DNA of 64,000 bases from Promethearchaeota archaeon. GTDB taxonomy: Archaea; Asgardarchaeota; Lokiarchaeia; Sigyniarchaeales; SOKP01. A program made the translations under genes and the position numbers. Below are positions 50,408 through 64,000 of this stretch, piece after piece. The notes below the pieces were generated by a model. That model was not told the origin of the DNA and ran no database searches. It was given only the letters and a program-made list of their open reading frames with translations. The DNA is taken from positions 366,449-430,448 of the forward strand of contig JBHLOY010000001.1 in assembly GCA_048939995.1 (NCBI GenBank), written 5' to 3'. The stretch's first letter is position 1. Each line of letters begins with the position of its first letter.

Positions 50408-52096
50408 CTATACTTCTTCTCCTCGTCTTTTAGCTTCAATATCCTTTAACTCTTTCCTCTGTACTTTCCCAACCATTGTTTCTGGAAGTTCTTTCCTAAA
50501 TTCTATGAATTTTGGTACTTTATAGGGAGCCATATTTTGTTGGCAGAAAGCCTTAATTTCATTTTTCATCTCATCAGTTTCTTGATAGCCATCTTTTAAT
50601 ACTACATAAGCTTTTACTTTTTCGCTACCCGGGAGATCAGGATTAGGAACACCTATAATAGCAACATTCTCAATTGCTTCGTGTTCAAATAAAATATCTT
50701 CAAGCTCTCGTGGATATACCTTAAACCCACTTACATCTATCATATCCTTCTTTCGATCAACAATATAGAAATAACCATCTTCATCCATTTTACCAATATC
50801 TCCTGTCAGAACCCACCCATCTTTTAATTGATTATCTGTCTCTTCTGGTTTATTCCAGTACCCTTTAAATACTTGAGGTCCTTTCATCATAATTTCTCCA
50901 GCTTCTCCAAGAGGGACAATTTTGGTGTAATCTTCAATATCAACTATTTTAACCTCTGTATCAGGTATTGGCATTCCAACAGAACCTATTTTTCTTTCTC
51001 CAACTATTGGATTACTATGAGTTACTGGTGAAGTTTCTGTCATTCCATATCCTTCTAATACTTTTCCTCCAGTTCTTTGTTCAAATTCTTTAAGAACTTC
51101 GGGAGGCATTGGTGCGGCTCCAGTATTGCAAATTCTGATAGATCTAAGATATTTAGCATAATCTTCTAAGTCATCTCTTTCCAATAGACGCATATACATT
51201 GTTGGGACTCCTGGAAATATTGAAGGTTGTGTAGCTTTTATTATTTCAAAAAGGGACTTCTGATCTCGTGCATCGGGGTTTAATGCGACTGTTGAAGCAA
51301 GATAAATATGTAGGTTCATGCATACTGTTTGGCCATAAATATGAAAAAGAGGTAGATTGGTTAAGATAGTTTCTTTTCCTCTTTGTAATGCTTGGCCTAT
51401 CCAAGAAAGTGTAGCCACAGAATTAGAAACAAGATTATAATGAGTTAACATAGCACCTTTTGGAACACCAGTTGTGCCTCCTGTATATTGAAGGCAAGCA
51501 ATATCTTCCTTTGCATTAGTTTCAAATTTAGGAGGATCCGGTTTTGTGTTCTCGATAATATTGAGGAATTGATGAGTTCCTGATATCTCAGGAGGATTTC
51601 TCGGAGCCATTGGGGCGTAATCAAAAACGTTTGTGATTATTACCTGCCTTAAGCGGGTCCTATCTCTAATTTTATTAATCTTTTCTACCTGATTATCCCA
51701 TGCAATAATTATCTCTGCCCCAGAATCGTTAAGTTGGTACATCAACTCGTGCTCAGTATAGAGAACACTAACACAAGTCACTATTCCACCTGCTTTTAAT
51801 ATTCCATAATAACTCATTATGAATTGTGGAAAATTTGGAATCATAATGGCTACAACATCACCTCTTTTGACTCCCATTTTAACAAGTGCAGTTGCTAATC
51901 TATCGGCTGTATCCTTCAATTTTTTGTATGTTATTTTATTTTTTAAAAACCAAATTGCGGTATGGCTACTAAAATCACTTGCAGCATCATCTAAAAACTT
52001 ATAAATGTTTATTTCAGGATAATCTATGTGAGCCGGAACGCCCTCATCATAATTCTTTAACCATGGTTTAGAAGCATATGGATCCATTTCACTCAT
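50408..52096 (-). CDS. Long-chain fatty-acid--CoA ligase
   Basis: YTGGTTGVPKG, EGYGMTE, TGD, DRKKD, VGK. Confidence 0.95.
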   Translation of the reverse strand: MSEMDPYASKPWLKNYDEGVPAHIDYPEINIYKFLDDAASDFSSHTAIWFLKNKITYKKLKDTADRLATALVKMGVKRGDVVAIMIPNFPQFIMSYYGILKAGGIVTCVSVLYTEHELMYQLNDSGAEIIIAWDNQVEKINKIRDRTRLRQVIITNVFDYAPMAPRNPPEISGTHQFLNIIENTKPDPPKFETNAKEDIACLQYTGGTTGVPKGAMLTHYNLVSNSVATLSWIGQALQRGKETILTNLPLFHIYGQTVCMNLHIYLASTVALNPDARDQKSLFEIIKATQPSIFPGVPTMYMRLLERDDLEDYAKYLRSIRICNTGAAPMPPEVLKEFEQRTGGKVLEGYGMTETSPVTHSNPIVGERKIGSVGMPIPDTEVKIVDIEDYTKIVPLGEAGEIMMKGPQVFKGYWNKPEETDNQLKDGWVLTGDIGKMDEDGYFYIVDRKKDMIDVSGFKVYPRELEDILFEHEAIENVAIIGVPNPDLPGSEKVKAYVVLKDGYQETDEMKNEIKAFCQQNMAPYKVPKFIEFRKELPETMVGKVQRKELKDIEAKRRGEEV

Positions 52097-52180
52097 TCTA
52101 ATAATATACCTCCTAAAATTAGATTATTCATAATAATTCAAAAGATTTATTATAAAATAAAAAGATTTTGAAAATAAATA

Positions 52181-53683
52181 TCACTGTTCTAAGCTATCTA
52201 AGGCAGTAATAGCAGATTCACAAACATAATCACATTCGTCGTGTATAAGACCCTTTAAACCTGAAATAATTTCAGGTGTAGTTATACCAATTTTTGCAAG
52301 AGCTTCAGTGGATCTCCATCTAACATCAGGATTTTTATCACTTAAAGCATTCATCAACGATGGAATCGCTCTTTCAGCAAATTTGCCCATTTTACCAATG
52401 GATAATGCCGCCTCTCGTCGTACAATTTTAGATTTATCATTTAGAGCTTGTTCAAGAGCAGATAAAGCATCTTCCGAGCCAATTCCGATACTTCCTAGTG
52501 CCCTTGCAGCCTCAACTCGAATATGCTTTTTTCCACTTTGCATTATTTCAATCATAAATGGGATAGCTTCTTCAGCGTCTACACCAATACCTCCAATTGA
52601 AGAAATAATTATTAGTTTACGCCTATTATTGGTTATAAAATATTTTATTATATAATAAGGGGTTAAAATTAGAGGTACTAATAGAGTTAAAATGAATATG
52701 AAAATAGGAAGAAAATCTGATGATTCTAATAATATGTATGGGGCAACCAAAAAAGGTAAGATCCAATACAATATCCAACCAAATGAAAATTTCATATACT
52801 CATTATAAGATTTGATTAATGACGGTATAGAGTCTTTTCCAATTGAGCGAAGCGCATCAGCAGCTTTTCCGTGGATAATTTCATTATTATCTCTTAATAA
52901 CAAATAAAGGCTCTCAATAACTTTTGGATCTGCTTTTTTTATTTCACCCAAAGTTTCAATAGCTTCTTTTTTTATAATCAGATTTTTGTGTTTTATTATA
53001 CCTAATAAACTTGGTATCGCTGCTTCTCCCATCTCAGCTAAGGTGCTAACTATTCTATATCTTACTCTCCAATCCTTATCATCAATTGAAGAGATCAAAC
53101 TTGGAAGAGCCTTTATAGATCCTTTTCCAATTTTACTTATTGCCTGAGCTGAAGCAGTCCTAACTGCCCAACTTATATCTTTAAGGCTCTTCATTAAATA
53201 AGGAACTGAATCACCTGCCTCAGGACCAATAGATCCAAGAGCATTAGCAGCTTCTGCACGAACTTCTTCATTATTATCCTTTAATGCTTTATTTAGGCTA
53301 TTTAATGACTCCGGAGTTGGATTTTTGATCTTACCTAATGAGATTGCTGCCTCTTTTCGAATTGATTCATATTCACTACTTAGTAATTTAGCGAGTTCTG
53401 GCACAGCATCCTTTATACTAGTCCCAATCTTTCCTAAAGTTCGAGCAGTCTCACGACAGATACTCCAATCCTCATCTGAAAGACAAGCCAATAATTCTGA
53501 GACTGCATTTATTGATTTATCTCCTAATTCTCCTAAAATGTATATCGCGTTAAATTTTATTGATCGAATTTCACTATCTAAATTTGCAATTACTTCTTTG
53601 ATTACTGAGGGATCCTTTTCAATTCTAGATAATACTAAATCAATCCTAGAGTCTCTTAAAAGTGTTTCTAATGGGGCAGACAA
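52181..53683 (-). CDS. HEAT (PBS-lyase-like) repeat protein with internal transmembrane hairpin
   Basis: Repeated VRxxAAxALGxIG units either side of two hydrophobic helices (FGWILYWILPFLVAPYILL / FLPIFIFILTLLVPLILTPYYII). Confidence 0.9.
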   Translation of the reverse strand: MSAPLETLLRDSRIDLVLSRIEKDPSVIKEVIANLDSEIRSIKFNAIYILGELGDKSINAVSELLACLSDEDWSICRETARTLGKIGTSIKDAVPELAKLLSSEYESIRKEAAISLGKIKNPTPESLNSLNKALKDNNEEVRAEAANALGSIGPEAGDSVPYLMKSLKDISWAVRTASAQAISKIGKGSIKALPSLISSIDDKDWRVRYRIVSTLAEMGEAAIPSLLGIIKHKNLIIKKEAIETLGEIKKADPKVIESLYLLLRDNNEIIHGKAADALRSIGKDSIPSLIKSYNEYMKFSFGWILYWILPFLVAPYILLESSDFLPIFIFILTLLVPLILTPYYIIKYFITNNRRKLIIISSIGGIGVDAEEAIPFMIEIMQSGKKHIRVEAARALGSIGIGSEDALSALEQALNDKSKIVRREAALSIGKMGKFAERAIPSLMNALSDKNPDVRWRSTEALAKIGITTPEIISGLKGLIHDECDYVCESAITALDSLEQ

Positions 53684-53694
53684 TTTTTATCACC

Positions 53695-54408
53695 TTATAT
53701 ACCTAAATAAACCTTTTTTATTCGGGGTTCCTTTTCTAACTGTTCTTTGGTTCCCCGCATTTCTATTTTACCTTCTTCTAAGACATGGATATTTTCTCCT
53801 ACTTGCATCCCCAATACAGCATCCTGTTCAACTAAAAGCGCAGTAGTACCTTCATTTTTGATTTTCTCAATAGCATTAAATATATTTGCTTTAATTTTAG
53901 GAGCTAAACCTAATGAAGGTTCATCCATTAATAGAAGTTTCGGATTAGCCATAAGTGAGCGAGCTATTGCTAGCATTTGTTGTTCTCCACCACTAAGTGT
54001 TCCAGCTCTTTGTTTTTTCCTTTCTTTAAGACGTGGAAAAAGTTCAAAAACAAAATTAATTAATTCTTTATATTTTGATTTATCCTTAAGAGAATATGCT
54101 CCCATACGAAGATTTTCCTCAACACTCATATCATAAAAAAGTCTCCTACGTTCTGGGCAATGTGAAATTCCCAATCTAGCAATTTCATTAGCTTTCATAT
54201 CATCTATTCTTACTCCCATGAAAGTAATTTTACCTCGATCAGGTTCTTCTAAACCCGAAATTACTCTAAGAAGTGTAGATTTACCAGCACCATTAGGCCC
54301 TATAACTACGTCAAGAGATTTTTCTTCCACATTTAAATTAATTTCTTCGAGGGATTTTGCCTTACCATAATAATGATATATTTTTTTTAATTCAAGCAAA
54401 TTCTTCAC
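53695..54408 (-). CDS. livF: Branched-chain amino acid type ABC ATPase (LivF-like)
   Basis: GPNGAGKS, LSGGEQQM, DEPSLGLAP, VEQ. Confidence 0.9.
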   Translation of the reverse strand: MKNLLELKKIYHYYGKAKSLEEINLNVEEKSLDVVIGPNGAGKSTLLRVISGLEEPDRGKITFMGVRIDDMKANEIARLGISHCPERRRLFYDMSVEENLRMGAYSLKDKSKYKELINFVFELFPRLKERKKQRAGTLSGGEQQMLAIARSLMANPKLLLMDEPSLGLAPKIKANIFNAIEKIKNEGTTALLVEQDAVLGMQVGENIHVLEEGKIEMRGTKEQLEKEPRIKKVYLGI

Positions 54409-55132
54409 CTTTACCTAAATATGCTTCTAATACAATTTTATTACTTGCAACTTCTTTGGGAGTTGCATCAATAATGAATTTACCTTGGTGCATTGCTATT
54501 ACTCTCGGTACAAGATGCATTAGTTCTCTTAATACATGACCAGTCATAAAGATTGTGGCTCCATCCTCATGTAGTGCTTTGATTAATTCAGTAATAACAT
54601 CTGATTCTTCACGAGATAGCCCACTAAAAGGCTCATCAAGGAGTAAAAGTTGAGGATTAGTACCAAGTGCTTTGGCGATTTGAAGTTTTCTTAAATCCCC
54701 ATGAGGTAATACAATTGGAGGGATTCTAGCTTTATCAACTAAACCTGTAGATGCTAATATAGTACTAGCATATTCTTCTACTCCATAATTTTTTGCAACT
54801 CTCTTACCTCTTGGTGAAAGACAAGATACTGTTACATTATCCAGTAAAGTTAAAAACTTAAAAGATCTCACCAGTTGGAAGGTACGAGCTATTCCTAAGT
54901 TGACTATCTTATAGGGTTTCATACCAGTAATGTTTCGTCCATCAAATCTAATCCTTCCTAAACTTGGTTTCTCAAATCCAGATATTAGATTAAAAATTGT
55001 GGTTTTTCCTGCACCATTTGGTCCAATTAATCCTACAAATTCACCACGATTAATCTCAAAGCTAAAATCATTAACAGCTGTTAAACCGCCATATTTTTTG
55101 GTTAAATTTTTTACTTCTAAAAGAACTCCCAT
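54392..55132 (-). CDS. livG: Branched-chain amino acid type ABC ATPase (LivG-like)
   Basis: YGGLTAV, GPNGAGKT, GIARTFQ, LLDEP, EAYLG. Confidence 0.9.
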   Translation of the reverse strand: MGVLLEVKNLTKKYGGLTAVNDFSFEINRGEFVGLIGPNGAGKTTIFNLISGFEKPSLGRIRFDGRNITGMKPYKIVNLGIARTFQLVRSFKFLTLLDNVTVSCLSPRGKRVAKNYGVEEYASTILASTGLVDKARIPPIVLPHGDLRKLQIAKALGTNPQLLLLDEPFSGLSREESDVITELIKALHEDGATIFMTGHVLRELMHLVPRVIAMHQGKFIIDATPKEVASNKIVLEAYLGKGEEFA

Positions 55133-55159
55133 TTTAAAATTCACATATTTTTTTAATAA

Positions 55160-56188
55160 TTATCGTCCTATTAAAATGTCATATAAATCTTTAAGTTTTT
55201 CTACTATTGGCTTCAAAATACCATGTTCAGCAAATCGTATTACTATTATTAAGATGATAGAAAATATAAATACTGATACATCAGGCCATTCACTAAAAAT
55301 TTCGGCAACAAACCAAAAGAAATATGAGCCTAATGCTGATCCCGAAATAGTTGCTATTCCTCCTAGAGAGGCCATAACTATCGCATAAAATGAATATAGA
55401 GGCTGGTAGACTCCCGGATTTACACCTCGATTATGCATAGCGAATAAACTGCCTGCAATACCCGCAAAAAAAGCGCTAATCATAAAGGCAATGATTTTAT
55501 ATTTTGTTAAATTGATACCAGACGCTTCTGCTCCTTTATTATCGTCTCGGATTGATTTAAGGACAGTTCCCATCTTTGATTTGGTGATCCAAATTAAAAT
55601 TTCAAAAGTAGCGATCATTAAGATTAAATGGATATAATAATTATCTATAGCATTCCTTGAAATTTGTGGGATTTGGGAAATCCCTTCAGATCCTCCCAAC
55701 CAGGGTTCAAACCTAACGTTAAGGAATACATTAAACATAATTAACCCTAAAACCATTGTCCCTAATCCTAAATAGGGCCCTTTAAGTCTTAGGGCTGGAA
55801 TTCCAATCAACAATCCGAATACTACTCCAACCAGAGCTCCAATAATAAGCGCTAGCCACCAGACTGTTTCACCAAATAAAGGAGTGAAAACATAACGAAT
55901 AAAAAATGATGTAATGTAGCCAGCAATCCCGAAAAATATCGCATGCCCAAAGCTAACTTGCCCTGTAAAGCCAGCTAAAAAATCCCAACTTGCCGCAAAA
56001 ATCGCAAAGATCATCGAAGTAATAAAAATACCTAAATAATACCTATTTTGAGTGAAAAGAGGTACAATAAAAAGTGCTATCAAACAAATAACAGTTAATT
56101 TTCCCCTAAAAGTTTTTAGCCAATTAATAAGATAGATTTTTGAACTAGATACTTTTTTCTTTAAACGACTTTTTTCTTTTAATGACAT
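55160..56188 (-). CDS. livM: ABC permease (LivM-like)
   Basis: GQVSFGHA, LRLKGPYL, SIRDD...AEASGIN. Confidence 0.9.
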   Translation of the reverse strand: MSLKEKSRLKKKVSSSKIYLINWLKTFRGKLTVICLIALFIVPLFTQNRYYLGIFITSMIFAIFAASWDFLAGFTGQVSFGHAIFFGIAGYITSFFIRYVFTPLFGETVWWLALIIGALVGVVFGLLIGIPALRLKGPYLGLGTMVLGLIMFNVFLNVRFEPWLGGSEGISQIPQISRNAIDNYYIHLILMIATFEILIWITKSKMGTVLKSIRDDNKGAEASGINLTKYKIIAFMISAFFAGIAGSLFAMHNRGVNPGVYQPLYSFYAIVMASLGGIATISGSALGSYFFWFVAEIFSEWPDVSVFIFSIILIIVIRFAEHGILKPIVEKLKDLYDILIGR

Positions 56189-56218
56189 TTTTTATAATTT
56201 CTCCTATAAGCTTTAGAA

Positions 56219-57079
56219 TTAATAGACTTCTTTTTTTCCAAATAAACCTCTTGGTCGAATTAAAAGTACTAAAATAATCACTATAATCGGTACTATTGCA
56301 GAAAAAGCTGGATCAATAAAATAATTAACAATATTTCTAGTATATCCCATAATAAATGCTCCAACTACACTTCCTTTCAAACTTCCTAATCCACCAAAAA
56401 TTACAATGGCAAAAGAATTTGATAAGACTTCCCAACCCATATGAGGGGCTATAGATGCAGCTGGTACGTATAATATTGCTGCGATTCCTGCTAAAAATGC
56501 TGAAATCATAACAGTATACATAAGTGTCCTATCAGCATTAATGCCCATTAGCATTGCAGCTTCTCTATCTTGAGAAATCGCTCTTATTGATTTTCCAAGT
56601 TTTGATTTATTTATAAAAACCCCTATAATAATTACGATCACAAATGAAGATATTAATATAACAAGAAATTGTGCTGGAAATGACACGCCAAGAATAGTAA
56701 AAGTATAATCCTTTACAGGGCTTGGAACCGTGTGAGGTATGGCATCCCCAAAAACTTTTATGAATTGTTCAAAAAAGAATCCCAATGAAAATGTAATAAT
56801 AAGAATAGCCACATGGTTCTCTTGCAAAGGTTTTATTAGAAGAAGATAGGAAGCCCCACCGACAATAATAATAATAACTAGCGAGAGAATAGTTCCTCCT
56901 ATAAAACCCATTATATTGAATGTCCAGAACAGAATATATCCTGTTAACAAATAAAATAATCCATGAGATAAATTCAAAATTCCCCCAACTCCATAAACTA
57001 ATGAAAATCCCAAGGCAAGTAGCATATAAACAGAAGCTTCAATTGTTCCAAAAATTATTACTTCGGCAATAGGTACCAT
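56219..57079 (-). CDS. livH: ABC permease (LivH-like)
   Basis: ALGFSLVYG...NLSHG, GKSIRAISQD..AA.LMGI, RPRGLFG. Confidence 0.9.
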   Translation of the reverse strand: MVPIAEVIIFGTIEASVYMLLALGFSLVYGVGGILNLSHGLFYLLTGYILFWTFNIMGFIGGTILSLVIIIIVGGASYLLLIKPLQENHVAILIITFSLGFFFEQFIKVFGDAIPHTVPSPVKDYTFTILGVSFPAQFLVILISSFVIVIIIGVFINKSKLGKSIRAISQDREAAMLMGINADRTLMYTVMISAFLAGIAAILYVPAASIAPHMGWEVLSNSFAIVIFGGLGSLKGSVVGAFIMGYTRNIVNYFIDPAFSAIVPIIVIILVLLIRPRGLFGKKEVY

Positions 57080-57226
57080 TTTTTATCCTCGATTTATTCC
57101 TAAAATTATTTATAAGTTTAATTTTACTTTAAAGTTTATAAAGCTTTTCTATCAATTTCTAAATTGGCATAAATAAGAATAATAGAGAAAAAAAAAAAAA
57201 ATTGAGGTTACAAGATTGTTTTCTTT

Positions 57227-58615
57227 TTAATCATTGATCCCCCAGGGAGGAATTGCTATAGCTCCTGTTACAATACTATCTGGATAAAGTACATTTCCAG
57301 ATGATATAACACTTTTTGAACCATCTGGTTTCCATTGACAATATAAAGTAGTACCATATGGCCAACCCACTACTGCATCATGAGCCTTATTCCAACCCAC
57401 GTAACCTGTTGAAACACTGTCTCCAATCCATGGGCTAGCTCTATTAAAGCTTTCGAGATACGTTATTAGCGTTTCAGTCTTAAAACTTCCAGTCGCGTTA
57501 ATGCTAGCAGCTATTGTGTTTACAGCGTCATAGGCTCCTACTGCTGTATATAAAGGTTCATGATCAAATGTAGCTATAAAATCATCCCAGAAGGCTATTG
57601 TTAAGTCAGTTTTATTTGTCCTATGAACAGACTGCATTATCGTTTCATAAGCACAATCTCCGCCAGTATCGTCCCAGAATGTATCTAATTGCGATTGAAC
57701 ATCGATGCCTACTAAAAGACATTGGGGTTGGAGAGCTGCATATTGAGTCATCATGTAAATTCCACCTTGAGCTGAGATTACGGGGATTGTTATTTGTGCA
57801 TTTGCCGCCTCTATTTGATTCCAGTAGGTAGCAAAATCTGTTGCTGTAGCAGTAATGGGATATGCAATGTCAGCTACTATGGTATATCCATATAATGGAA
57901 GGTAAGTATTAAGTGCAGTATCCATTGGAATGGTCCAGTCTAAAGCTTCTCGTAAAACTGCCACCTTGTTTATGGTTTTGTTAAGTACAAGAGGATTTTG
58001 TAAATATGCCTTGAGGAAAGCCATTTGGCCGATTTGTGATCCTCCTAATGCAGATGAATTAATAGGCATAACCCTAAACCAATACTTATATCTATTATAA
58101 CTAGAATACGCTTCTCCGTAAACATTATAGCAGAAATAATCGGTTGATGCTCCAGTTCCAAGAAATAACTTTTTAGCATCCATAACGACTTCTACATACG
58201 CTTTTAAAGCCTCTGTTCTAAATCCTCCTATTATATATTCTGCACCATCTACTTCAATAATTTTTTCTGCTGCACCAACTCCCTTAGTAACGTCAAGTAC
58301 AGGGTTTGATTCATCCGTATCTTCAGCTACGAGCCCTATATAGTAAGTCGTACCATTAACTTGAACTCCGCCACCGGTATTTATATTATAGGCTGCAAGC
58401 CAGGCTCCCTCATAATTTCCCTGTCCTTGTATTTCAGTTATACCTCCAAGTAAACCAATCTTAATTATTCGATTATCTGGTATACCTGAAACTCCCGGAG
58501 TTATAAAAGCAGATGCAGCTGGAGTTAATAAAAACCAGACGCCAACGCCTATACCTGCACCAGCGATAGCTAAGACAGCAACTATGGCTAAGATTCTTTT
58601 CATATTTCGTTCCAT
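57227..58615 (-). CDS. ABC substrate-binding protein (LivJ/K-type fold), N-terminal membrane anchor
   Basis: N-terminal TM, IKIGLLG, IN..GG, AYDAV; heads the liv cluster; followed by a U tract (A run at about 57188-57200). Confidence 0.9.
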   Translation of the reverse strand: MERNMKRILAIVAVLAIAGAGIGVGVWFLLTPAASAFITPGVSGIPDNRIIKIGLLGGITEIQGQGNYEGAWLAAYNINTGGGVQVNGTTYYIGLVAEDTDESNPVLDVTKGVGAAEKIIEVDGAEYIIGGFRTEALKAYVEVVMDAKKLFLGTGASTDYFCYNVYGEAYSSYNRYKYWFRVMPINSSALGGSQIGQMAFLKAYLQNPLVLNKTINKVAVLREALDWTIPMDTALNTYLPLYGYTIVADIAYPITATATDFATYWNQIEAANAQITIPVISAQGGIYMMTQYAALQPQCLLVGIDVQSQLDTFWDDTGGDCAYETIMQSVHRTNKTDLTIAFWDDFIATFDHEPLYTAVGAYDAVNTIAASINATGSFKTETLITYLESFNRASPWIGDSVSTGYVGWNKAHDAVVGWPYGTTLYCQWKPDGSKSVISSGNVLYPDSIVTGAIAIPPWGIND

Positions 58616-58782
58616 ATTTTAATCACTTTTTAGAAAGTTATTATTTTTAACAAATTTTTATATCTAAATTAGATTTGACAATTAGTATTTCAGATAAACA
58701 TATATTTAAATATTTATAATTGAACTCTGTATTTTTCTATAGACAGTCTAAAAAACAGTTATTAATTTACTAGCTTAGAAGG

Positions 58783-59736
58783 CTATTGATTTATTTTAAA
58801 CAGGTTAAATCCATTAGAAACATGGTCAATTATATCTGATCTTTTGTTAAAAGTCACTTTTAGACCATATACTGATCCTCGGAAATAACTTTCTGCCAGG
58901 ACTAGTATGACACTGCAATGTTCATCAGTTTTTTTAATAATCGGTATTTGTGCCTCCCATTTCGTAAAAAACACATAATTTTTTGCGATATTTATTGCTT
59001 TTTTATAATACTTCATATCTTCAGATGCATTTGATAACTGAGTTTCAAAAATTTTACTATTTTTTTTTGAAAATTGAATTTTCTTTCTTAATCTAAAAAT
59101 GCATAAGTTATCTGAAGAAATTTTTTCATAAATAAAATATCTAAATGGGAATAGACCAGGAATGTAAAGCGCATTAGAAGGCAATTTTGCTTGAATCCAA
59201 ATTTTAGAAATAATGCGATACATGAAATAGAGTAAATAAAATCCAAAAAAGTATTGAAATAGATATGAAAAGAATAGTTGTGGAAAAAAGAAGTATAATA
59301 TTGAATAAAATATTATTACTGTACCTGAGATAAGAGCTAAAACAAAATTAATTGCCCTATCTATAAAAAATCTATACCTTCTTTTCGAGAAGGGATAAAA
59401 AATAGGAATTTTGGACGCTGTCATTAAATCAAGTGAAATATGAAGACTGTAAAAAAGGAATCCGACAACCCAGACAATAACAAAATTTTCATTGGTAATA
59501 AGAGTAAATATACTTGCTGTAAAAAAAGAAAAGATGATTGCAGTAAAATAAGAATGGGATAATCCTTTGTGTGAGAGAAAATTTGATTTTTTAATTAATT
59601 GTAATGGTTCCAAGACAATATCAAAATCAGCAATGATAGCCATAATTATAGCATAGAGAACGATACTAAATGGTAATGAGTTAAGCGTGTAGATACTTAT
59701 AAATATTGCCATTAAAAAGTGTGTGAAAAAATCCAT
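58783..59736 (-). CDS. Membrane metal-dependent hydrolase (YdjM-like)
   Basis: MDFFTH, ADFD, HKGLSHS, LHISLD motifs. Confidence 0.85.
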   Translation of the reverse strand: MDFFTHFLMAIFISIYTLNSLPFSIVLYAIIMAIIADFDIVLEPLQLIKKSNFLSHKGLSHSYFTAIIFSFFTASIFTLITNENFVIVWVVGFLFYSLHISLDLMTASKIPIFYPFSKRRYRFFIDRAINFVLALISGTVIIFYSILYFFFPQLFFSYLFQYFFGFYLLYFMYRIISKIWIQAKLPSNALYIPGLFPFRYFIYEKISSDNLCIFRLRKKIQFSKKNSKIFETQLSNASEDMKYYKKAINIAKNYVFFTKWEAQIPIIKKTDEHCSVILVLAESYFRGSVYGLKVTFNKRSDIIDHVSNGFNLFKINQ

Positions 59737-59841
59737 AAAAGCTCGAAGATTTAAATAAGGAATTATTTTTTAAGTTTCAGATTTTAAAATAAAGAGGAAA
59801 GAATTTAAATATTTTTTGCAATAAATTAAGGAGGCAATCCT

Positions 59842-59885
59842 TTTGTCAATCTCTTACTATAATTTTCTAAAAGATTTCATTCAAA
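59842..59885 (-). promoter_or_regulatory. Candidate SECIS-like kink-turn hairpin in 3' UTR
   Basis: Minus strand UUUG-A-AUGA-AAUCUUUUA-G-AAAAUUAUA-G-UAAGAGAUU-GA-CAAA: lower stem, 3-nt bulge, tandem GA/AG, 9-bp upper stem, A-rich loop. Confidence 0.45.
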
Positions 59886-59999
59886 TTATTATAATTGTTT
59901 GTTAAAATAATGGATAAAATATTTATTCTCTTTACCATATTTTTGGCGCAGTATTGTTTTAAGTGACCCCATATCTAATCGTTCTTTTACTTTTTCTCA

Positions 60000-60356
60000 T
60001 CAACATCCTACATCTGGTTGTAATTGAATAAAGCTATTAGGATAGATATTGAATTCAATATTTTCCCTAATGGGGTTAAATTTACGTAAAATTCCATCCT
60101 CATCAGGTGCGTAGGCAAATACTCCGACGTCCTCATATATTAAACCTTCCTCTAAATTTACAAATAGTTGAAGATAACTATGAATGTAACTCTCATATAG
60201 TGGAAATATTGAATTCATAGAATCTTCCATTTCAATTTTATCAACCAATGCTAAAGCTTGGATAAATGTTGCGTTATCATTGAGTTCAAGAGAATACTTC
60301 TTACCCTGTTGGAGACCTTTAATTGGTATACTAATTTCAAATTCTACCTTTTTAAT
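60000..60356 (-). CDS. MoaD/Urm1/SAMP-like beta-grasp protein ending Gly-Cys, probable ATT start; possible selenoprotein
   Basis: Frame extends 36 codons upstream of the track ORF to ATT 7 nt after AGGTGA: KKVEFEISIP..KKYSLELNDNATFIQALALVD...NIYPNSFIQLQPDVGC then TGA TGA. Confidence 0.7.
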   Translation of the reverse strand: MKKVEFEISIPIKGLQQGKKYSLELNDNATFIQALALVDKIEMEDSMNSIFPLYESYIHSYLQLFVNLEEGLIYEDVGVFAYAPDEDGILRKFNPIRENIEFNIYPNSFIQLQPDVGC

Positions 60357-60378
60357 CTTTAATTCACCTATCGTATGA

Positions 60379-60648
60379 TTATATTAAGCCTTTTTCTTTA
60401 AGGAGAATGGGTAAATCTTTTTTCAGTAGAAATGCAGCAGTATATTTTCTTTCATTATCTACTACAATTGAGTTTCCATGTAAATTAAGGCTTCTAGCTT
60501 CTTCAGAATTAAGATTTTTTGTGCTATAATCAATATGTTTAATGTAAGGAGTTAAAACAATGAATACACGGTTCATAAACTTATCCCATTCGCAAGCACA
60601 GCTATCTAATGGCACATAAATGTCCACTTTTAATTTGCTATTTTCCAT
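60379..60648 (-). CDS. Small thioredoxin-fold CxC protein, ArsD-like metallochaperone candidate
   Basis: KVDIYVPLDSCAC resembles the ArsD N-terminal strand/Cys cluster; IVVD strand; ars-type context. Confidence 0.6.
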   Translation of the reverse strand: MENSKLKVDIYVPLDSCACEWDKFMNRVFIVLTPYIKHIDYSTKNLNSEEARSLNLHGNSIVVDNERKYTAAFLLKKDLPILLKEKGLI

Positions 60649-60659
60649 GGTTTAGATCC

Positions 60660-60965
60660 TTAAGAACAATTACATGATTGGTTTGAATTTTTTACTCTAC
60701 TTCTCACATTCCATAAACATCCACAACCAGGCTGTTCTTGCATAATGATAGCTTGGGTGGGGCAATTTCTCTTACAGGCACTGCACTCAGTACAGAGATT
60801 TTCATTAGTTATTTCATACTTTCCATTTTCATTTGGTTTTGGTAATCCAAAAGGGCAAATCTCTCCACACAACCCACAACCATTACAGATATCTTTATTA
60901 ATAAAGATACGCAGATTCTTCATGATTTGTGTGATATTTAAAGACTTAAAATCTATTTCAGTCAA
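60660..60965 (-). CDS. HgcB-like 2x[4Fe-4S] ferredoxin with extra Cys
   Basis: CNGCGLCGEICP, CTECSACKRNCP, then GCGC and terminal CNCS; TTG start after GGAGG; directly after the HgcA-like gene. Confidence 0.85.
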   Translation of the reverse strand: MTEIDFKSLNITQIMKNLRIFINKDICNGCGLCGEICPFGLPKPNENGKYEITNENLCTECSACKRNCPTQAIIMQEQPGCGCLWNVRSRVKNSNQSCNCS

Positions 60966-61010
60966 ACTTAACACCTCCTAATCTACAATATTATTAATTT
61001 TTTATATTAT

Positions 61011-62672
61011 TTAAACAAATATAACTCCAATTGTTAATGAAATCAAGCCTATTATTAAAAAAACCTTATTTAATAAGCTAAATAGGGGATATTCATTTTC
61101 AATTTTTCTTGGGCTTGTTGCCATTGTATAACCACTGGAAGACATAGTGGAAAAAAAAGCAATCCAAAAGAAAAATCCAATATTTATGAGGACATAAAGA
61201 ATTGAACTATGAAGCCACCACGTTAGTAATCCCAAAATACTAATATTAATGAATCCATAGAATATTCCCTTAAATACAAATTTTTGGGTAAAATCTGAAA
61301 GAGGAAACAATAAAAATATAATTAGATTTGTAATTATGACCCAAAGGCAGATTTCCCCAATCCACCAAACCTTATCAAAGTTTGTAAAAATTGCTAGTCC
61401 TAAGAATAGGAAGAATAAAGCGATTATAGGTAAAAGAAACACTTTACGGAAGAGAAATGTAGTGTGGGTTATTACTGCACGCATGCGATGAGACAATTTA
61501 AATTTAGCGAGCTTCATTTTATCTGATTTTTTAGACGGCTTTTCTTTTAAATAGTCTGGTATAAACTTGGACCATACTGGGCCATATTTAACCTTAAATG
61601 GAAATTTTTCGGAACTTTTAGGTAGTTCTGGAATAGCTATTCCGCCAGCAGAAAGTTGAGGAAGCAGAAGTGTTTTTTTATTAGAAATATATTGAATTCC
61701 AGAAGTTTCTACAGCTTCGAGGAGTTGGGAATTACCAAAATTATTTCCGCGAGCCGCACACCATACATTAATCCCATTAGAATCGACACATAATACCCAT
61801 GCGTTGATCTTTTTCAAATCTCGCATAACTTTAATATATGTATAATCATAATTTGCAGTAACAATAATAGGGGAATCTTTATCGGGAGTCCCAGATTCAT
61901 AAATCCCTGGCTCAATAGGAACATGATCCACTTGACCGGTGAAGGTGCAACGGTATATCCTTAATTGAGATTTTATTCCTTTAAATTTTCTCGGTTTAGG
62001 ACGATAATAACCAGGTTCATTTTTTTGATTGACAATTACTTTTTGAAGCTCTAATGCTTGGATAGAGCCATGTTTCCACTTTTTTTGAGTTTTAATTTTG
62101 AATCCGATTGATTCTAGATAATTAAAGAACCATTTAACACGGAAAGTATTTTGTAATCGAAGTCTTCTAATTTTTTTCTTGTACCACCATCTTTTAATAT
62201 TAAAGATTAATCTCCAAAATCCTGAAGGCACAAATTCAGCTCCAATTATTAAACTTCCTTCTGGTTTTAGGACTTTCCATGCATTTCGAAGGAAAATTTG
62301 CTGTTCAAATGGACGTAATTCTGATAACATAAAAGTACTTACTACCACATCCTTAGAAGAATCTTCCATATGTATATCTGAGAAAGTCCCAATTTGATAA
62401 GTTAGTTTCAAATTTTCTTCTTGAGGATAATTCTGCATTGCAAAAGTAATCATCTTAAAATTTTTGTCAATTGCAATAACATTATTACCCTTTAATGCCA
62501 TTTTAGCAGCGAGTACACCTGTACCACATCCAATCTCTAAAACATCTGAAGCATTTACACGATCAAGAATCCATTTCTGGACTTCTTTATTAACTCCCTT
62601 TGTAAGAGTGGTAAATTTTGAATCATATGTATCTGGTTCCTGTTCCAATTTCCTCATATATACGACAGCCAT
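61011..62672 (-). CDS. SAM methyltransferase fused to HgcA-like corrinoid-binding membrane protein
   Basis: N-term VLEIGCGTG..LKPEG; middle PIIVTANY, GINVWCAARG cap helix (61746-61769), LPQL, YGPV; five C-terminal TM helices; ATG 62672 after AGGTG. Confidence 0.9.
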   Translation of the reverse strand: MAVVYMRKLEQEPDTYDSKFTTLTKGVNKEVQKWILDRVNASDVLEIGCGTGVLAAKMALKGNNVIAIDKNFKMITFAMQNYPQEENLKLTYQIGTFSDIHMEDSSKDVVVSTFMLSELRPFEQQIFLRNAWKVLKPEGSLIIGAEFVPSGFWRLIFNIKRWWYKKKIRRLRLQNTFRVKWFFNYLESIGFKIKTQKKWKHGSIQALELQKVIVNQKNEPGYYRPKPRKFKGIKSQLRIYRCTFTGQVDHVPIEPGIYESGTPDKDSPIIVTANYDYTYIKVMRDLKKINAWVLCVDSNGINVWCAARGNNFGNSQLLEAVETSGIQYISNKKTLLLPQLSAGGIAIPELPKSSEKFPFKVKYGPVWSKFIPDYLKEKPSKKSDKMKLAKFKLSHRMRAVITHTTFLFRKVFLLPIIALFFLFLGLAIFTNFDKVWWIGEICLWVIITNLIIFLLFPLSDFTQKFVFKGIFYGFINISILGLLTWWLHSSILYVLINIGFFFWIAFFSTMSSSGYTMATSPRKIENEYPLFSLLNKVFLIIGLISLTIGVIFV

Positions 62673-62712
62673 TAAATACACCTATTTTCTTGTATTTTAT
62701 AATAAAATAAAC

Positions 62713-63771
62713 CTATTGAGATTTCCAAAAACCTCGTTTTTTTAGATACCTGCCTAAATAAACTATTGAAAGCATTATGGGGACTTCCCAAAATAATCCC
62801 ATAGTAGTCCCCAATGCTGCAATTGAACCAACACCATAGATTGCGATAGCAGTAGCGATTGCAATTTCAAAATGACTTGAAGATCCAATAATTACAGTTA
62901 TTACAGCCTCTTTGTATTTTAATTTAAAAAATTTGGTAATTAGGATATTGTATCCAACAACAATAGCAAAACCAACCAGAAGTGGTATTGAAACCAATAA
63001 TAACAAATCTGGATTAAGTACTAGAACTTGTCCATTTAAAGAAAAAAGCACAGCTAGAGTAGTCAATAGAGCTAAAATAGAAATTTTTCCTACTAGAGGG
63101 CGATAAATATTATTAAACCAATCTATTCCCTTGGAAGAAATAATAAGTCTTTTAGATATAATACCAAGTAATAAAGGAAGCCCAATAAAAATTAATGTTG
63201 AAAATAATAAAAGGATCCAATTTATTGGGATGCTTTGAATACCTGTTAATAACGTTACCATTGGAGCATAACCAAATATTATAGTTATGGTGTTTAAACT
63301 AGTATTAATTACATTCTGTTCTTGATTTCCTCGTGCCATCCAGCCCCATACAAGAACCATCGCTGTACACGGTGAACTAGAGAGTAATATAATAGCGACT
63401 GAAAGTTGTTGATTTCCAGCTAAAAACAAATTAACCATCAGTAACCCTATAAAAGGAGCAACTAACCAATTAGAGATTAATGTTAAAATGATAGGTTTAG
63501 GATTTCTTCCCAATTTCTTTAATTCTGAGGCCTGAATATTTAACATTGCAGGATACATCATCAAAAACAAACAAATCCCAATAGGAACTGAAATTTCCCC
63601 TATTTTTATAGCATCAATTGCTTCACTGATGCCTGGAAAAAATTGCGATAAAAGAATTCCAATAAGAATACATAAAGCAACCCATAGGGGAAGAAATTTC
63701 TCAAAAAAACCAATATCTTTCCCTTTCTCTTTCGAAACTTGTTCTATTCGATTTAATCTTTCTTTTTGCAT
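62713..63771 (-). CDS. acr3: ACR3 family arsenite efflux transporter
   Basis: FEKFLPLWVALC, MMYP, NW...P, PCTAMV, FEIAIA, EVPIML. Confidence 0.93.
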   Translation of the reverse strand: MQKERLNRIEQVSKEKGKDIGFFEKFLPLWVALCILIGILLSQFFPGISEAIDAIKIGEISVPIGICLFLMMYPAMLNIQASELKKLGRNPKPIILTLISNWLVAPFIGLLMVNLFLAGNQQLSVAIILLSSSPCTAMVLVWGWMARGNQEQNVINTSLNTITIIFGYAPMVTLLTGIQSIPINWILLLFSTLIFIGLPLLLGIISKRLIISSKGIDWFNNIYRPLVGKISILALLTTLAVLFSLNGQVLVLNPDLLLLVSIPLLVGFAIVVGYNILITKFFKLKYKEAVITVIIGSSSHFEIAIATAIAIYGVGSIAALGTTMGLFWEVPIMLSIVYLGRYLKKRGFWKSQ

Positions 63772-63774
63772 AAT

Positions 63775-63999
63775 TTATTGAATAACCTCTTCTAAAATAA
63801 GTGTTGAATCTTTATTCCTTCTTTCATACTCTCTTCTAATGTTTTTAATAAAAGATTTTAAATTATTTGTAAGTTTATTGAAACTTTCCAAGGAGATACC
63901 ATTAAATATTGAGACTAAATGGATAATACCAGCCACTTCCTTATCGCATGTATGACCAAAACGCGGAGCACGGCATTCATAACAAACATTTAAAGCGAA
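63775..63999 (-). CDS. C-terminal part of a Cys-containing protein, truncated by window edge
   Basis: Open frame FALNVCYECRAPRFGHTCDKEV...EEVIQ*; stop 3 nt before the acr3 ATG. Confidence 0.65.
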   Translation of the reverse strand, partial: FALNVCYECRAPRFGHTCDKEVAGIIHLVSIFNGISLESFNKLTNNLKSFIKNIRREYERRNKDSTLILEEVIQ

Positions 64000-64000
64000 A

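What the first reader, a model, noticed from the sequence alone, without database searches (positions are those of the whole stretch)
59842..64000. Operon coupling arsenite efflux to an HgcAB-like corrinoid methylation module and Cys-rich carriers
Seen: six co-oriented genes with gaps of 3, 40, 45, 11 and 22 nt: a CxxC protein (partial), acr3, MTase-HgcA-like fusion, HgcB-like ferredoxin, CxC thioredoxin-fold protein and a beta-grasp protein ending Gly-Cys. Known: HgcA/HgcB methylate Hg(II); hgcAB genes are often near ars genes; hgcA homologues have been reported in Asgard genomes. Inference: a self-contained metal(loid) detox pathway in which SAM methylates a membrane corrinoid, the ferredoxin re-reduces cobalt, small thiol/selenol proteins deliver the substrate, and Acr3 exports As(III). 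The substrate may be As (or Sb) rather than Hg. I do not recognise this gene combination as described.
Basis: partly seen in the sequence, partly recalled or inferred. Interest (0 to 1): 0.92.

Follow-up and report, generated by a model that had tools for sequence, protein, structure and literature searches.

The report
Asgard arsenic operon with double-selenocysteine protein
This Asgard archaeon's arsenic-resistance operon joins an arsenite pump to an undescribed relative of the mercury-methylating enzyme and to a hidden small protein that reads two neighbouring 'stop' codons as selenocysteine; what the enzyme methylates is untested.

Summary
The six genes and five gaps are as described, in a Lokiarchaeia (Promethearchaeia) genome. 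A divergent arsR lies just outside the window.

Two corrections.
1. The last gene does not end Gly-Cys. It reads on through TGA-TGA for 35 more codons and is followed by a eukaryote-type SECIS. Of 135 homologues, 132 carry the tandem UGA; two without it read straight through. The family is missing from the selenoprotein catalogues I could read. This scan found it before on other DNA.
2. The cluster is two separable modules, not one self-contained pathway. One is arsR-acr3-thioredoxin-selenoprotein. The other is a SAM-methyltransferase::HgcA-like fusion plus ferredoxin (paired in 48/48 loci, arsR near 37, acr3 near 27).

The fusion keeps the cobalt-ligand Cys but fails the HgcA and HgcB motifs, lies outside the HgcA clade and has no ArsM-type cysteines. 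The genome has a true ArsM elsewhere. Arsenic links are strong: the thioredoxin is fused to ArsM in two relatives, and arsM or arsC join the operon in others. Arsenic is the likeliest methyl acceptor (about 40%, Hg about 15%). Nothing here is biochemically tested.

The parts
63775..64000 (-). 3' part of a 251-aa DUF166 protein that runs out of the window; optional member of the operon. The divergent arsR (134 aa, CVC motif) lies 130 nt beyond its start, outside the window, at G000:C11:431108-431512 (+)
   Evidence: PF02593 E 1.5e-27; below the DfsP cut-off, 42.7 of 200; in 13/48 loci. arsR: NF033788 74 bits, cut-off 55; PF01022; CVC in 50/51 Loki neighbours
62713..63771 (-). Acr3 arsenite efflux permease, 352 aa; the genome's only copy
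   Evidence: TIGR00832 E 2e-80, 270.4 of 282.8; SPCTAMV and SHFEIA in 29/29 orthologues
61011..62672 (-). 553-aa fusion: CpaM-like class I SAM methyltransferase (aa 3-210), HgcA-like corrinoid domain, five predicted TM helices
   Evidence: 1114 proteins at E<=1e-20
61746..61769 (-). Variant cap helix NVWCAARG; Cys305 (putative cobalt ligand) invariant
   Evidence: sequence; Cys305 in 129/129; motif
60660..60965 (-). HgcB-like 2x[4Fe-4S] ferredoxin, TTG start behind AGGAGGTG; second cluster motif CTECSAC; tail GCGC ... CNC
   Evidence: (NF040864 55 of 99); follows the fusion in 48/48 loci
60379..60648 (-). 89-aa thioredoxin-fold protein with invariant CxC; fused to ArsM in two relatives
   Evidence: fusion in L206 and L211
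59889..60356 (-). 155-aa beta-grasp selenoprotein, Gly-Cys-Sec-Sec plus a 35-residue helical tail; probable ATT start
59997..60002 (-). Tandem UGA UGA codons (predicted Sec119, Sec120)
   Evidence: TGA at both positions in 86/86 genes tabulated, never TAA or TAG; 131 of 135 distinct homologues plus one partial copy
59846..59880 (-). Eukaryote/Loki-type SECIS: AUGA, 8-9 bp stem, A-rich loop, GA; 122 nt after the first UGA
   Evidence: (helix 1: 98.9% of cells paired, 3 pairs with changes on both sides)
59828..59843 (-). Second small covarying hairpin just after the SECIS; role unknown
   Evidence: (helix 2)

Best explanation
An As(III)-responsive operon of Lokiarchaeia built from two modules. 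MODULE 1 (arsenite handling): ArsR releases the promoter when it binds As(III) [inferred from family and motif]. Acr3 exports As(III) [established for the family; motifs shown]. A CxC thioredoxin-fold protein and a beta-grasp selenoprotein bind or reduce trivalent arsenic in the cytoplasm [inferred]. The selenoprotein is made by reading UGA-UGA as Sec-Sec under a 3' SECIS [strong comparative evidence, about 90%; no protein evidence]. It offers three soft ligands (Cys-Sec-Sec), as an As(III) chaperone or buffer would [inferred, about 50%]. MODULE 2 (corrinoid methylation): the ferredoxin reduces the Cys305-ligated corrinoid to Co(I), the fused CpaM-like domain hands it a methyl group from SAM, and methyl-Co passes it to a soft metal(loid) held by the ferredoxin's Cys-rich tail [chemistry inferred from HgcAB, about 70%]. 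The likeliest acceptor is a trivalent arsenical or antimonial (about 40%), complementing rather than replacing ArsM. The modules share a regulator; they are not one obligatory pathway [modularity shown].
For: Synteny: fusion+Fd 48/48; arsR 37/48; acr3 27/48; arsC 7/48. Selenoprotein loci of family f1: arsR 27/40, acr3 26/40, Trx 26/40, fusion 5/40. True ArsM (NF008823 above cut-off) is fused to the CxC domain in L206 and L211, directly upstream of the selenoprotein, and arsM sits in the operon in L157/L308 (one genome) and L287. ArsR lies directly upstream of fusion+Fd in 4 of 9 loci of the Thorarchaeota-containing sister clade. Sec-Sec: invariant TGA TGA; tail pN/pS 0.14-0.24 with third-position bias; tail frame open in 85/86 while each other frame is stopped in 50-82/86; two non-UGA homologues read through into the same tail (P0031, P0022); SECIS 113/122 at 107-142 nt against a 1.2% background; the same scan recovers SECIS behind this genome's PrxL and VhuD; SepSecS, SelD with an in-frame TGA and a SelB-like factor are in the genome; tRNA-Sec in four relatives. 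Each subtype has three S/Se residues: C-U-U, U-U plus a Cys at Y-x-D-C (18/19), or U-G-U-U. SAM is the methyl donor of HgcAB through a Cys-ligated methylcobalamin (PMC11588087). Methylcobalamin can methylate arsenic (PMC13262295).
Against: No expression, binding or activity data. Only 2 of 20 selenoprotein loci in more distant Loki families lie near acr3, so its older role may not be arsenic. Bacterial methyltransferase fusions: 0 of 5 near ars genes. P. mercurii ND132, with canonical hgcAB, made no methylarsenicals (bioRxiv 10.1101/2022.10.17.512643). The genome already has ArsM. Relatives are not independent samples. tRNA-Sec was not found in this assembly, which lacks most tRNAs. The SelB-like hit is just under the cut-off (235.6 of 242.25). 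The three-ligand pattern rests on few evolutionary events, and the spatial closeness of the AD-type Cys was not tested.
Confidence: 0.6

Rival explanations
1. One reading: one self-contained pathway in which the small thiol/selenol proteins deliver As to the corrinoid methylase and Acr3 completes detoxification.
For: All six genes are co-oriented with gaps of 45 nt or less, and this full order recurs in about a dozen genomes; 25/48 fusion loci carry the selenoprotein.
Against: The modules occur apart in many genomes. Acr3 exports the substrate. The thioredoxin's fusion partner is ArsM, not the corrinoid protein.
Confidence: 0.15
2. The fusion + ferredoxin is a divergent mercury methylase that came under ArsR control, as canonical hgcAB often has.
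For: The Co-ligand Cys, five TM helices, an adjacent 2x[4Fe-4S] ferredoxin with GxGC and terminal Cys are all kept. Canonical hgcAB is often flanked by acr3/arsC/arsR (PMC7438021). A sister relation to HgcA is not rejected (AU p 0.25).
Against: Fails the N[VI]WC[AS][AGS]GK and C[MI]ECGA criteria (PMC10087281). Below the NCBIfam HgcA and HgcB cut-offs. Outside the 100%-supported HgcA clade. The other non-canonical group, fused HgcAB, does not methylate Hg where tested.
Confidence: 0.15
3. The corrinoid module methylates or demethylates something else (an organic compound, a thiol, Se/Te/Bi) and only hitch-hikes on the ars operon in Loki and Thor archaea.
For: Bacterial fusions lie beside TetR/Rrf2 regulators, an F420-dependent reductase and ABC exporters. 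11/48 Loki loci have no ars gene nearby, some with MarR-like neighbours. The genome has a second, unlinked CpaM-like + HgcAB-like pair.
Against: The NVWC[AG]ARG clade keeps a CVC-type ArsR next to it in both Loki and Thor lineages, even without acr3; arsM and arsC are recruited next to it.
Confidence: 0.3
4. UGA-UGA is a real double stop. The product is a 118-residue ubiquitin-like protein, and the tail is a separate peptide made from a start codon just downstream.
For: In family f1 a start-like triplet follows closely: GTG in 36/41 GC-type genes (16% of Val codons elsewhere), ATG in 19/19 AD-type, ATG/TTG in 5/5 UGUU-type. Databases hold the pieces separately (P0002, P0024).
Against: Always TGA although TAA is 66% of this genome's stops. 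This gene has GTA there, and 23/86 genes have no start within six codons. Non-UGA homologues are one continuous ORF. A SECIS follows at a fixed distance. A third in-frame UGA occurs in 7 genes. The residue before UGA is not conserved (Cys, Asp, Gly), so a truncated C-terminus is not a common functional end.
Confidence: 0.08
5. The selenoprotein is real but is a general redox, selenium-handling or cobalamin-binding protein rather than an arsenic chaperone.
For: Found across the whole class, mostly away from ars genes in distant families and as unlinked paralogues. The B12-binding beta domains of transcobalamin and intrinsic factor tie with SAMP1 in the fold search (Z 7.2 and 7.0 against 7.4).
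Against: It follows acr3 or arsR directly in many loci, even with no other gene between (L114, L139, L147, L164, L210, L225). Z under 8 may show only the common fold.
Confidence: 0.35

Closest known systems
HgcA/HgcB mercury methylase (NF040863/NF040864; PMC11588087)
   Same: Corrinoid domain with cap-helix Cys, five TM helices, adjacent 2x[4Fe-4S] ferredoxin with a Cys-rich tail, frequent ars neighbourhood and ArsR upstream (PMC7438021; bioRxiv 2022.10.17.512643).
   Different: Cap helix NVWCAARG, ferredoxin motif CTECSAC, an N-terminal SAM methyltransferase domain, scores below both cut-offs, separate clade.
CpaM (NF043040) + HgcAB-like fusion protein (NF043039)
   Same: The same methyltransferase family joined to an HgcA-like corrinoid protein and a ferredoxin; this genome also has such a two-gene pair (G000:C14).
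   Different: The fusion is the other way round (methyltransferase fused, ferredoxin free), both scores are below cut-off, and it forms its own clade; the C14-type pairs fetched are not next to acr3.
ars operons with Acr3, ArsC, ArsM and a chaperone (ArsD) or PF13192 thioredoxin (ArsE)
   Same: ArsR + Acr3 core; optional arsC and arsM; small Cys proteins; nearest named look-alikes of the CxC protein are PF13192 clusters (score 0.89, a lead only).
   Different: CxC instead of CxxC; no sequence hit to ArsD in Pfam or NCBIfam; a selenoprotein and a corrinoid module are added.
Asgard selenoproteins with lokiSECIS (SelD, HdrA, VhuD/FrhD, VhuU/FrhA, PrxL, DsbA-like, AhpF-N-like; PMC4989117, PMC11227280, PMC13188914)
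   Same: AUGA...AA...GA hairpin in the 3' UTR just after the true stop; same Sec machinery.
   Different: Beta-grasp fold, two adjacent Sec (three Sec in one subtype), no Cys-aligned homologues found; not among the Asgard families or the 119 prokaryotic families tabulated.
SAMP/MoaD/CysO ubiquitin-like carriers
   Same: Beta-grasp fold; the last strand ends in a GG-like position (P-D-V-G-C).
   Different: No free C-terminal Gly-Gly; the chain continues through Sec-Sec into a 32-53-residue helical tail, so thiocarboxylate or isopeptide chemistry is unlikely.

Membership tests
HgcA | Cap helix N[V/I]WC[A/S][A/G/S]GK (PMC10087281) | tested here: not met
   NVWCAARG; NVWC[AG]ARG in all Loki members. 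It does meet the looser N(V/I)WC(A/S) rule of PMC10083202.
HgcA | Cobalt-ligand Cys (Cys93 equivalent) and TM anchor | tested here: met
   Cys305 in 129/129; five hydrophobic segments, aa 411-551
HgcA | NCBIfam NF040863 cut-off (275 bits) | tested here: not met
   163.3 bits
HgcA | Falls inside the HgcA clade | tested here: not met
   55 canonical sequences form a clade with SH-aLRT 100 that excludes it; a sister position is not rejected, AU p 0.25; quick trees, no bootstrap
HgcA | Methylates Hg(II) | not testable with these tools
   needs an assay
HgcB | Two CxxCxxCxxxCP motifs, gene next to hgcA | tested here: met
   adjacent in 48/48 loci
HgcB | C[M/I]ECGA motif and NF040864 cut-off (99) | tested here: not met
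   CTECSAC; 55 bits
HgcB | C-terminal vicinal Cys-Cys | tested here: inconclusive
   C-N-C here; CC in many orthologues
HgcAB-like fusion (NF043039) | Ferredoxin fused at the C-terminus; cut-off 285 | tested here: not met
   ferredoxin is a separate gene; 173.5 bits. The C14 paralogue passes with 361.
CpaM (NF043040) | Cut-off 180; linked to a corrinoid protein | tested here: inconclusive
   147.6 bits, E 3e-43, far above other methyltransferase families; fused to the corrinoid domain
ArsM (NF008823) | Cut-off 263 and conserved As-binding cysteines | tested here: not met
   35.4 bits; the only conserved Cys in aa 1-210 is Cys49 in the SAM motif
Acr3 | TIGR00832 match; conserved Cys and Glu motifs (motif roles from my own knowledge) | tested here: met
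   E 2e-80, 270.4 bits, just under the cut-off that many class orthologues pass; motifs 29/29
Asgard selenoprotein (lokiSECIS type) | Conserved in-frame UGA with coding sequence beyond it | tested here: met
Asgard selenoprotein (lokiSECIS type) | AUGA_AA_GA SECIS in the 3' UTR | tested here: met
   Rfam gave no family match
Asgard selenoprotein (lokiSECIS type) | Sec machinery in the genome | tested here: inconclusive
   SepSecS and SelD met, SelB-like just under cut-off, tRNA-Sec not assembled here but present in four relatives; PSTK not tested
Asgard selenoprotein (lokiSECIS type) | Cys-containing homologues aligned to Sec | tested here: not met
   the two non-UGA homologues have Ile-Thr and Val-Ser; this may be why homology-based surveys missed it (inference)
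Asgard selenoprotein (lokiSECIS type) | Selenium incorporation shown | not testable with these tools
   needs 75Se labelling or mass spectrometry
SAMP/MoaD | Beta-grasp fold | tested here: met
   Z 7.4, rmsd 3.0, 83 aligned to 4hro
SAMP/MoaD | Free C-terminal Gly-Gly | tested here: not met
   GCUU/ADUU/UGUU followed by a tail
Thioredoxin fold | Fold; CxxC at the start of helix 1 | tested here: inconclusive
   fold met (Z 9-10); motif is CxC, both Cys invariant in 35 sequences

The most novel reading that the evidence does not exclude
Asgard archaea carry a second, cobalamin-dependent enzymatic route for methylating arsenic (a self-charging HgcA relative), working in the same regulon as a tandem-selenocysteine As(III) chaperone. 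This would point to arsenic as the original substrate of the HgcA family and give the first natural Sec-Sec metalloid-binding site I could find described.
Probability: 0.25. Interest if true: 0.93.

Novelty: new variant of a known kind. Interest (0 to 1): 0.78.

Why it matters
The native function of HgcAB is an open question, and arsenic is the leading hint. This clade carries its own SAM domain and keeps an ArsR beside it in two Asgard lineages, so it is a direct test case. It also passes the loose N(V/I)WC(A/S) rule but fails the strict one, so it could inflate counts of Asgard mercury methylators. The selenoprotein adds a class-wide family (138 of 400 phylum genomes, all in this class) to the few known in Asgard archaea. 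It would need two consecutive UGA codons decoded from one eukaryote-type SECIS, in a lineage where no SBP2 has been found, which bears on how eukaryotic Sec decoding arose. Both parts occur in Ca. Lokiarchaeum ossiferum B35, which from my own knowledge is in culture.

Tried and rejected
Pfam/NCBIfam: no hit for the CxC protein or the selenoprotein. Foldseek/PDB: nothing at E<=0.001 for the selenoprotein. No PDB sequence match for the CxC alignment and no solved HgcA among the fusion's matches. Rfam: no SECIS family. The single SECIS hairpin is not unusually stable (z -1.3); the case rests on conservation, position and covariation. Promoter/terminator scan at chance level and built for bacteria. 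RNA runs: none was listed, which is no evidence on expression; read laying not used. The ARAGORN 'tRNA-SeC' at C19:68368-68455, seen only at a lowered threshold, was rejected: Rfam did not support it. Genome-wide UGA recoding rejected: 679 ORFs end in TGA. An antisense or shifted frame as the cause of tail conservation rejected. ArsM-type chemistry in the fused domain rejected. Two papers I wanted were not held (the ISME J 2023 paper on Asgard hgcA; Haft and Gwadz 2023), so novelty against them is unchecked. Complex prediction not used: no binding claim is made. I then sent the model built from it to the atlas fold library.

Full report
1. What is there. The window comes from a 3.75-Mb genome. 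Its close relatives are recorded as Promethearchaeota/Lokiarchaeota. On the minus strand lie DUF166 (runs out of the window), acr3 (62713-63771), a 553-aa methyltransferase::HgcA-like fusion (61011-62672), a ferredoxin (60660-60965), a CxC protein (60379-60648) and a beta-grasp protein starting at 60356. The gaps are exactly 3, 40, 45, 11 and 22 nt. A divergent ArsR-family gene lies 130 nt beyond DUF166, outside the window at G000:C11:431108-431512. Family matches: Acr3 TIGR00832 E 2e-80; CpaM NF043040 aa 3-210 (147.6 of 180); HgcAB-like NF043039 (173.5 of 285) and HgcA NF040863 (163.3 of 275) aa 250-547; HgcB NF040864 (55 of 99); DUF166 PF02593. The CxC protein folds as a thioredoxin, the last protein as a beta-grasp.

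2. The last gene was misread. After Gly-Cys come TGA TGA, 35 sense codons, TAA and an AUGA-stem-AA-stem-GA hairpin. All 22 orthologues from the same operon show this. A profile search found the family in 138 of 400 phylum genomes, all in this class, 117 of 134 in this family, almost every full match with two TGA. Of 135 distinct homologues, 131 have UU, one more is a partial copy with UU, one is cut by a contig end, and two have Ile-Thr or Val-Ser instead and run as one ORF into the same tail. The tail is under purifying selection (pN/pS 0.14-0.24). Its frame is open in 85 of 86 genes, while each other frame is interrupted in 50-82. A SECIS-like element lies 107-142 nt after the first UGA in 113 of 122 genes, against 37 of 3123 ordinary ORFs. 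Its stem is 98.9% paired, with changes on both sides at three pairs (related sequences inflate such counts). The same scan picks out this genome's PrxL and VhuD selenoprotein genes and an unlinked paralogue on C16. SepSecS, a SelD with an in-frame TGA and a SelB-like factor are present. tRNA-Sec is missing from this tRNA-poor assembly but present in four relatives. I put Sec-Sec readthrough at about 90%. The caveat is a start-like triplet three or four codons after the UGA pair in most genes of this family, which could allow re-initiation. It is absent from this gene, and 23 of 86 genes have no start within six codons. The family is not among the Asgard families of PMC4989117 and PMC11227280 or the 119 prokaryotic families of PMC13188914. 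I reached this reading before looking at the scan's notes, which show it was noted on this window and confirmed on other genomes.

3. Two modules. Loci chosen by the fusion (48 with enough flank) have the ferredoxin in 48, arsR in 37, the thioredoxin in 29, acr3 in 27, the selenoprotein in 25, DUF166 in 13 and arsC in 7. Loci chosen by the selenoprotein in this family (40) have arsR in 27, acr3 in 26, the thioredoxin in 26 and the fusion in 5; in distant families only 2 of 20 lie near acr3. These samples were picked by hand or by score, and kin are not independent. The full six-gene order recurs in about a dozen genomes. So arsR-acr3-Trx-selenoprotein and (arsR)-fusion-ferredoxin are separable units that often share a locus. 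The arsenic link is reinforced by a true ArsM fused to the CxC domain in L206 and L211, directly upstream of the selenoprotein, and by arsM inside the operon in L157/L308 and L287. This genome keeps its ArsM elsewhere.

4. The fusion is not an HgcA. Its cap helix is NVWC[AG]ARG throughout the Loki members, and the ferredoxin has CTECSAC. Both fail the consensus criteria of PMC10087281, though the fusion passes the looser rule of PMC10083202. In a 158-sequence tree of the corrinoid and TM region, canonical HgcA forms a clade (SH-aLRT 100) that excludes it. The Loki fusion groups with a Thorarchaeota-containing fusion clade (93-95), apart from HgcAB-like fusions and from bacterial methyltransferase fusions. 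The deep order is unresolved, and a sister position to HgcA is not rejected (AU p 0.25). It keeps what the chemistry needs: an invariant Cys305, five TM segments and a partner ferredoxin with a Cys-rich tail. The methyltransferase domain has no ArsM-type cysteines, so it more likely methylates the cobalt than arsenic (inference). A CVC-type ArsR lies directly upstream in 4 of 9 loci of the Thor clade. Five bacterial fusions have no ars neighbours.

5. How it most likely works. Shown: gene content, modularity, motifs, folds, and the comparative case for Sec-Sec. From established knowledge: ArsR derepression by As(III) and Acr3 efflux; SAM as methyl donor to a Cys-ligated cobalamin in HgcAB (PMC11588087); arsenic methylation by methylcobalamin (PMC13262295). 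Inferred: the selenoprotein binds As(III) through three S/Se ligands (each subtype has three) and works with the CxC thioredoxin as a chaperone or reductant; the corrinoid module charges itself from SAM and methylates a soft metal(loid). My odds for the acceptor: As or Sb species 0.4, another substrate 0.3, Hg 0.15, no such transfer 0.15. Against arsenic: ND132 with canonical HgcAB made no methylarsenicals, Acr3 competes for the substrate, and ArsM is already present.

6. Novelty and verdict. hgcAB beside acr3, arsC, arsM and arsR is published (PMC7438021; bioRxiv 2022.10.17.512643), and CpaM and HgcAB-like proteins have NCBIfam models. I found no paper on the methyltransferase-fused NVWCAARG clade, on this operon, or on the tandem-Sec family, but two relevant papers were not held. 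Observation partly confirmed; interpretation partly supported; a new variant of a known kind of system that contains an undescribed selenoprotein family. Interest 0.78.

Noticed in passing
G000:C16:9345-9794 (L145:6337-6804): Second copy of the tandem-UGA selenoprotein (HADUU subtype) with its own SECIS, not near ars genes.
   Followed up: partly
G000:C14 (L070:7360-9156): Separate CpaM-like gene + HgcAB-like fusion (cap helix NVWCGACG; NF043039 361 bits), away from ars genes; in relatives it is often followed by a 179-191-aa gene of one family (not identified with a tool).
   Followed up: partly
L140, L146, L148, L163, L164: A subtype with three in-frame UGA (S-U-G-U-U) and almost no Cys; tandem pairs of different subtypes occur in one operon, the upstream copy sometimes without a detected SECIS (L139, L154).
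   Followed up: partly
L206:6444-7556, L211:6550-7671: ArsM fused to the CxC thioredoxin domain, directly upstream of the selenoprotein gene.
   Followed up: yes
window 59828-59843 (-): Second covarying hairpin immediately after the SECIS; terminator or part of the recoding element.
   Followed up: partly
codons 3-4 after the UGA pair, family f1: Strong bias to GTG/ATG/TTG; possible re-initiation that would make the tail as a separate peptide.
   Followed up: partly
window 60354-60356 (-): Probable ATT start behind AGGTGA; many orthologues also lack ATG/GTG/TTG at this place.
   Followed up: no
L204, L210, L214, L215, L217, L220: A second family-wide cluster: small arsR, a CxC-thioredoxin paralogue, several Cys-rich proteins and DUF166, often near acr3 and the selenoprotein.
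   Followed up: no
L034, L046 and others, next to arsR: Cys-rich DUF2769 (PF10967) gene co-oriented with arsR in many loci; absent here.
   Followed up: no
L324, L326, L327, L335 (Thor clade); L329-L338 (family f16); L343-L346 (bacterial-type; L343's protein is named Chloroflexi): Other clades of methyltransferase::HgcA-like fusions with a free ferredoxin; some f16 ferredoxins carry the canonical CIECGAC motif.
   Followed up: partly
window 50408-59736 (-): Downstream: YdjM-family membrane protein (58783-59736), a branched-chain amino acid-type ABC transporter, a HEAT-repeat protein interrupted by a TM segment (52181-53683), and an acyl-CoA ligase-like gene (50408-52096).
   Followed up: no
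G000:C11 just beyond arsR, outside the window (L031): SMC-like gene with two small downstream genes; the ars operon sits beside this block in most of the family.
   Followed up: no
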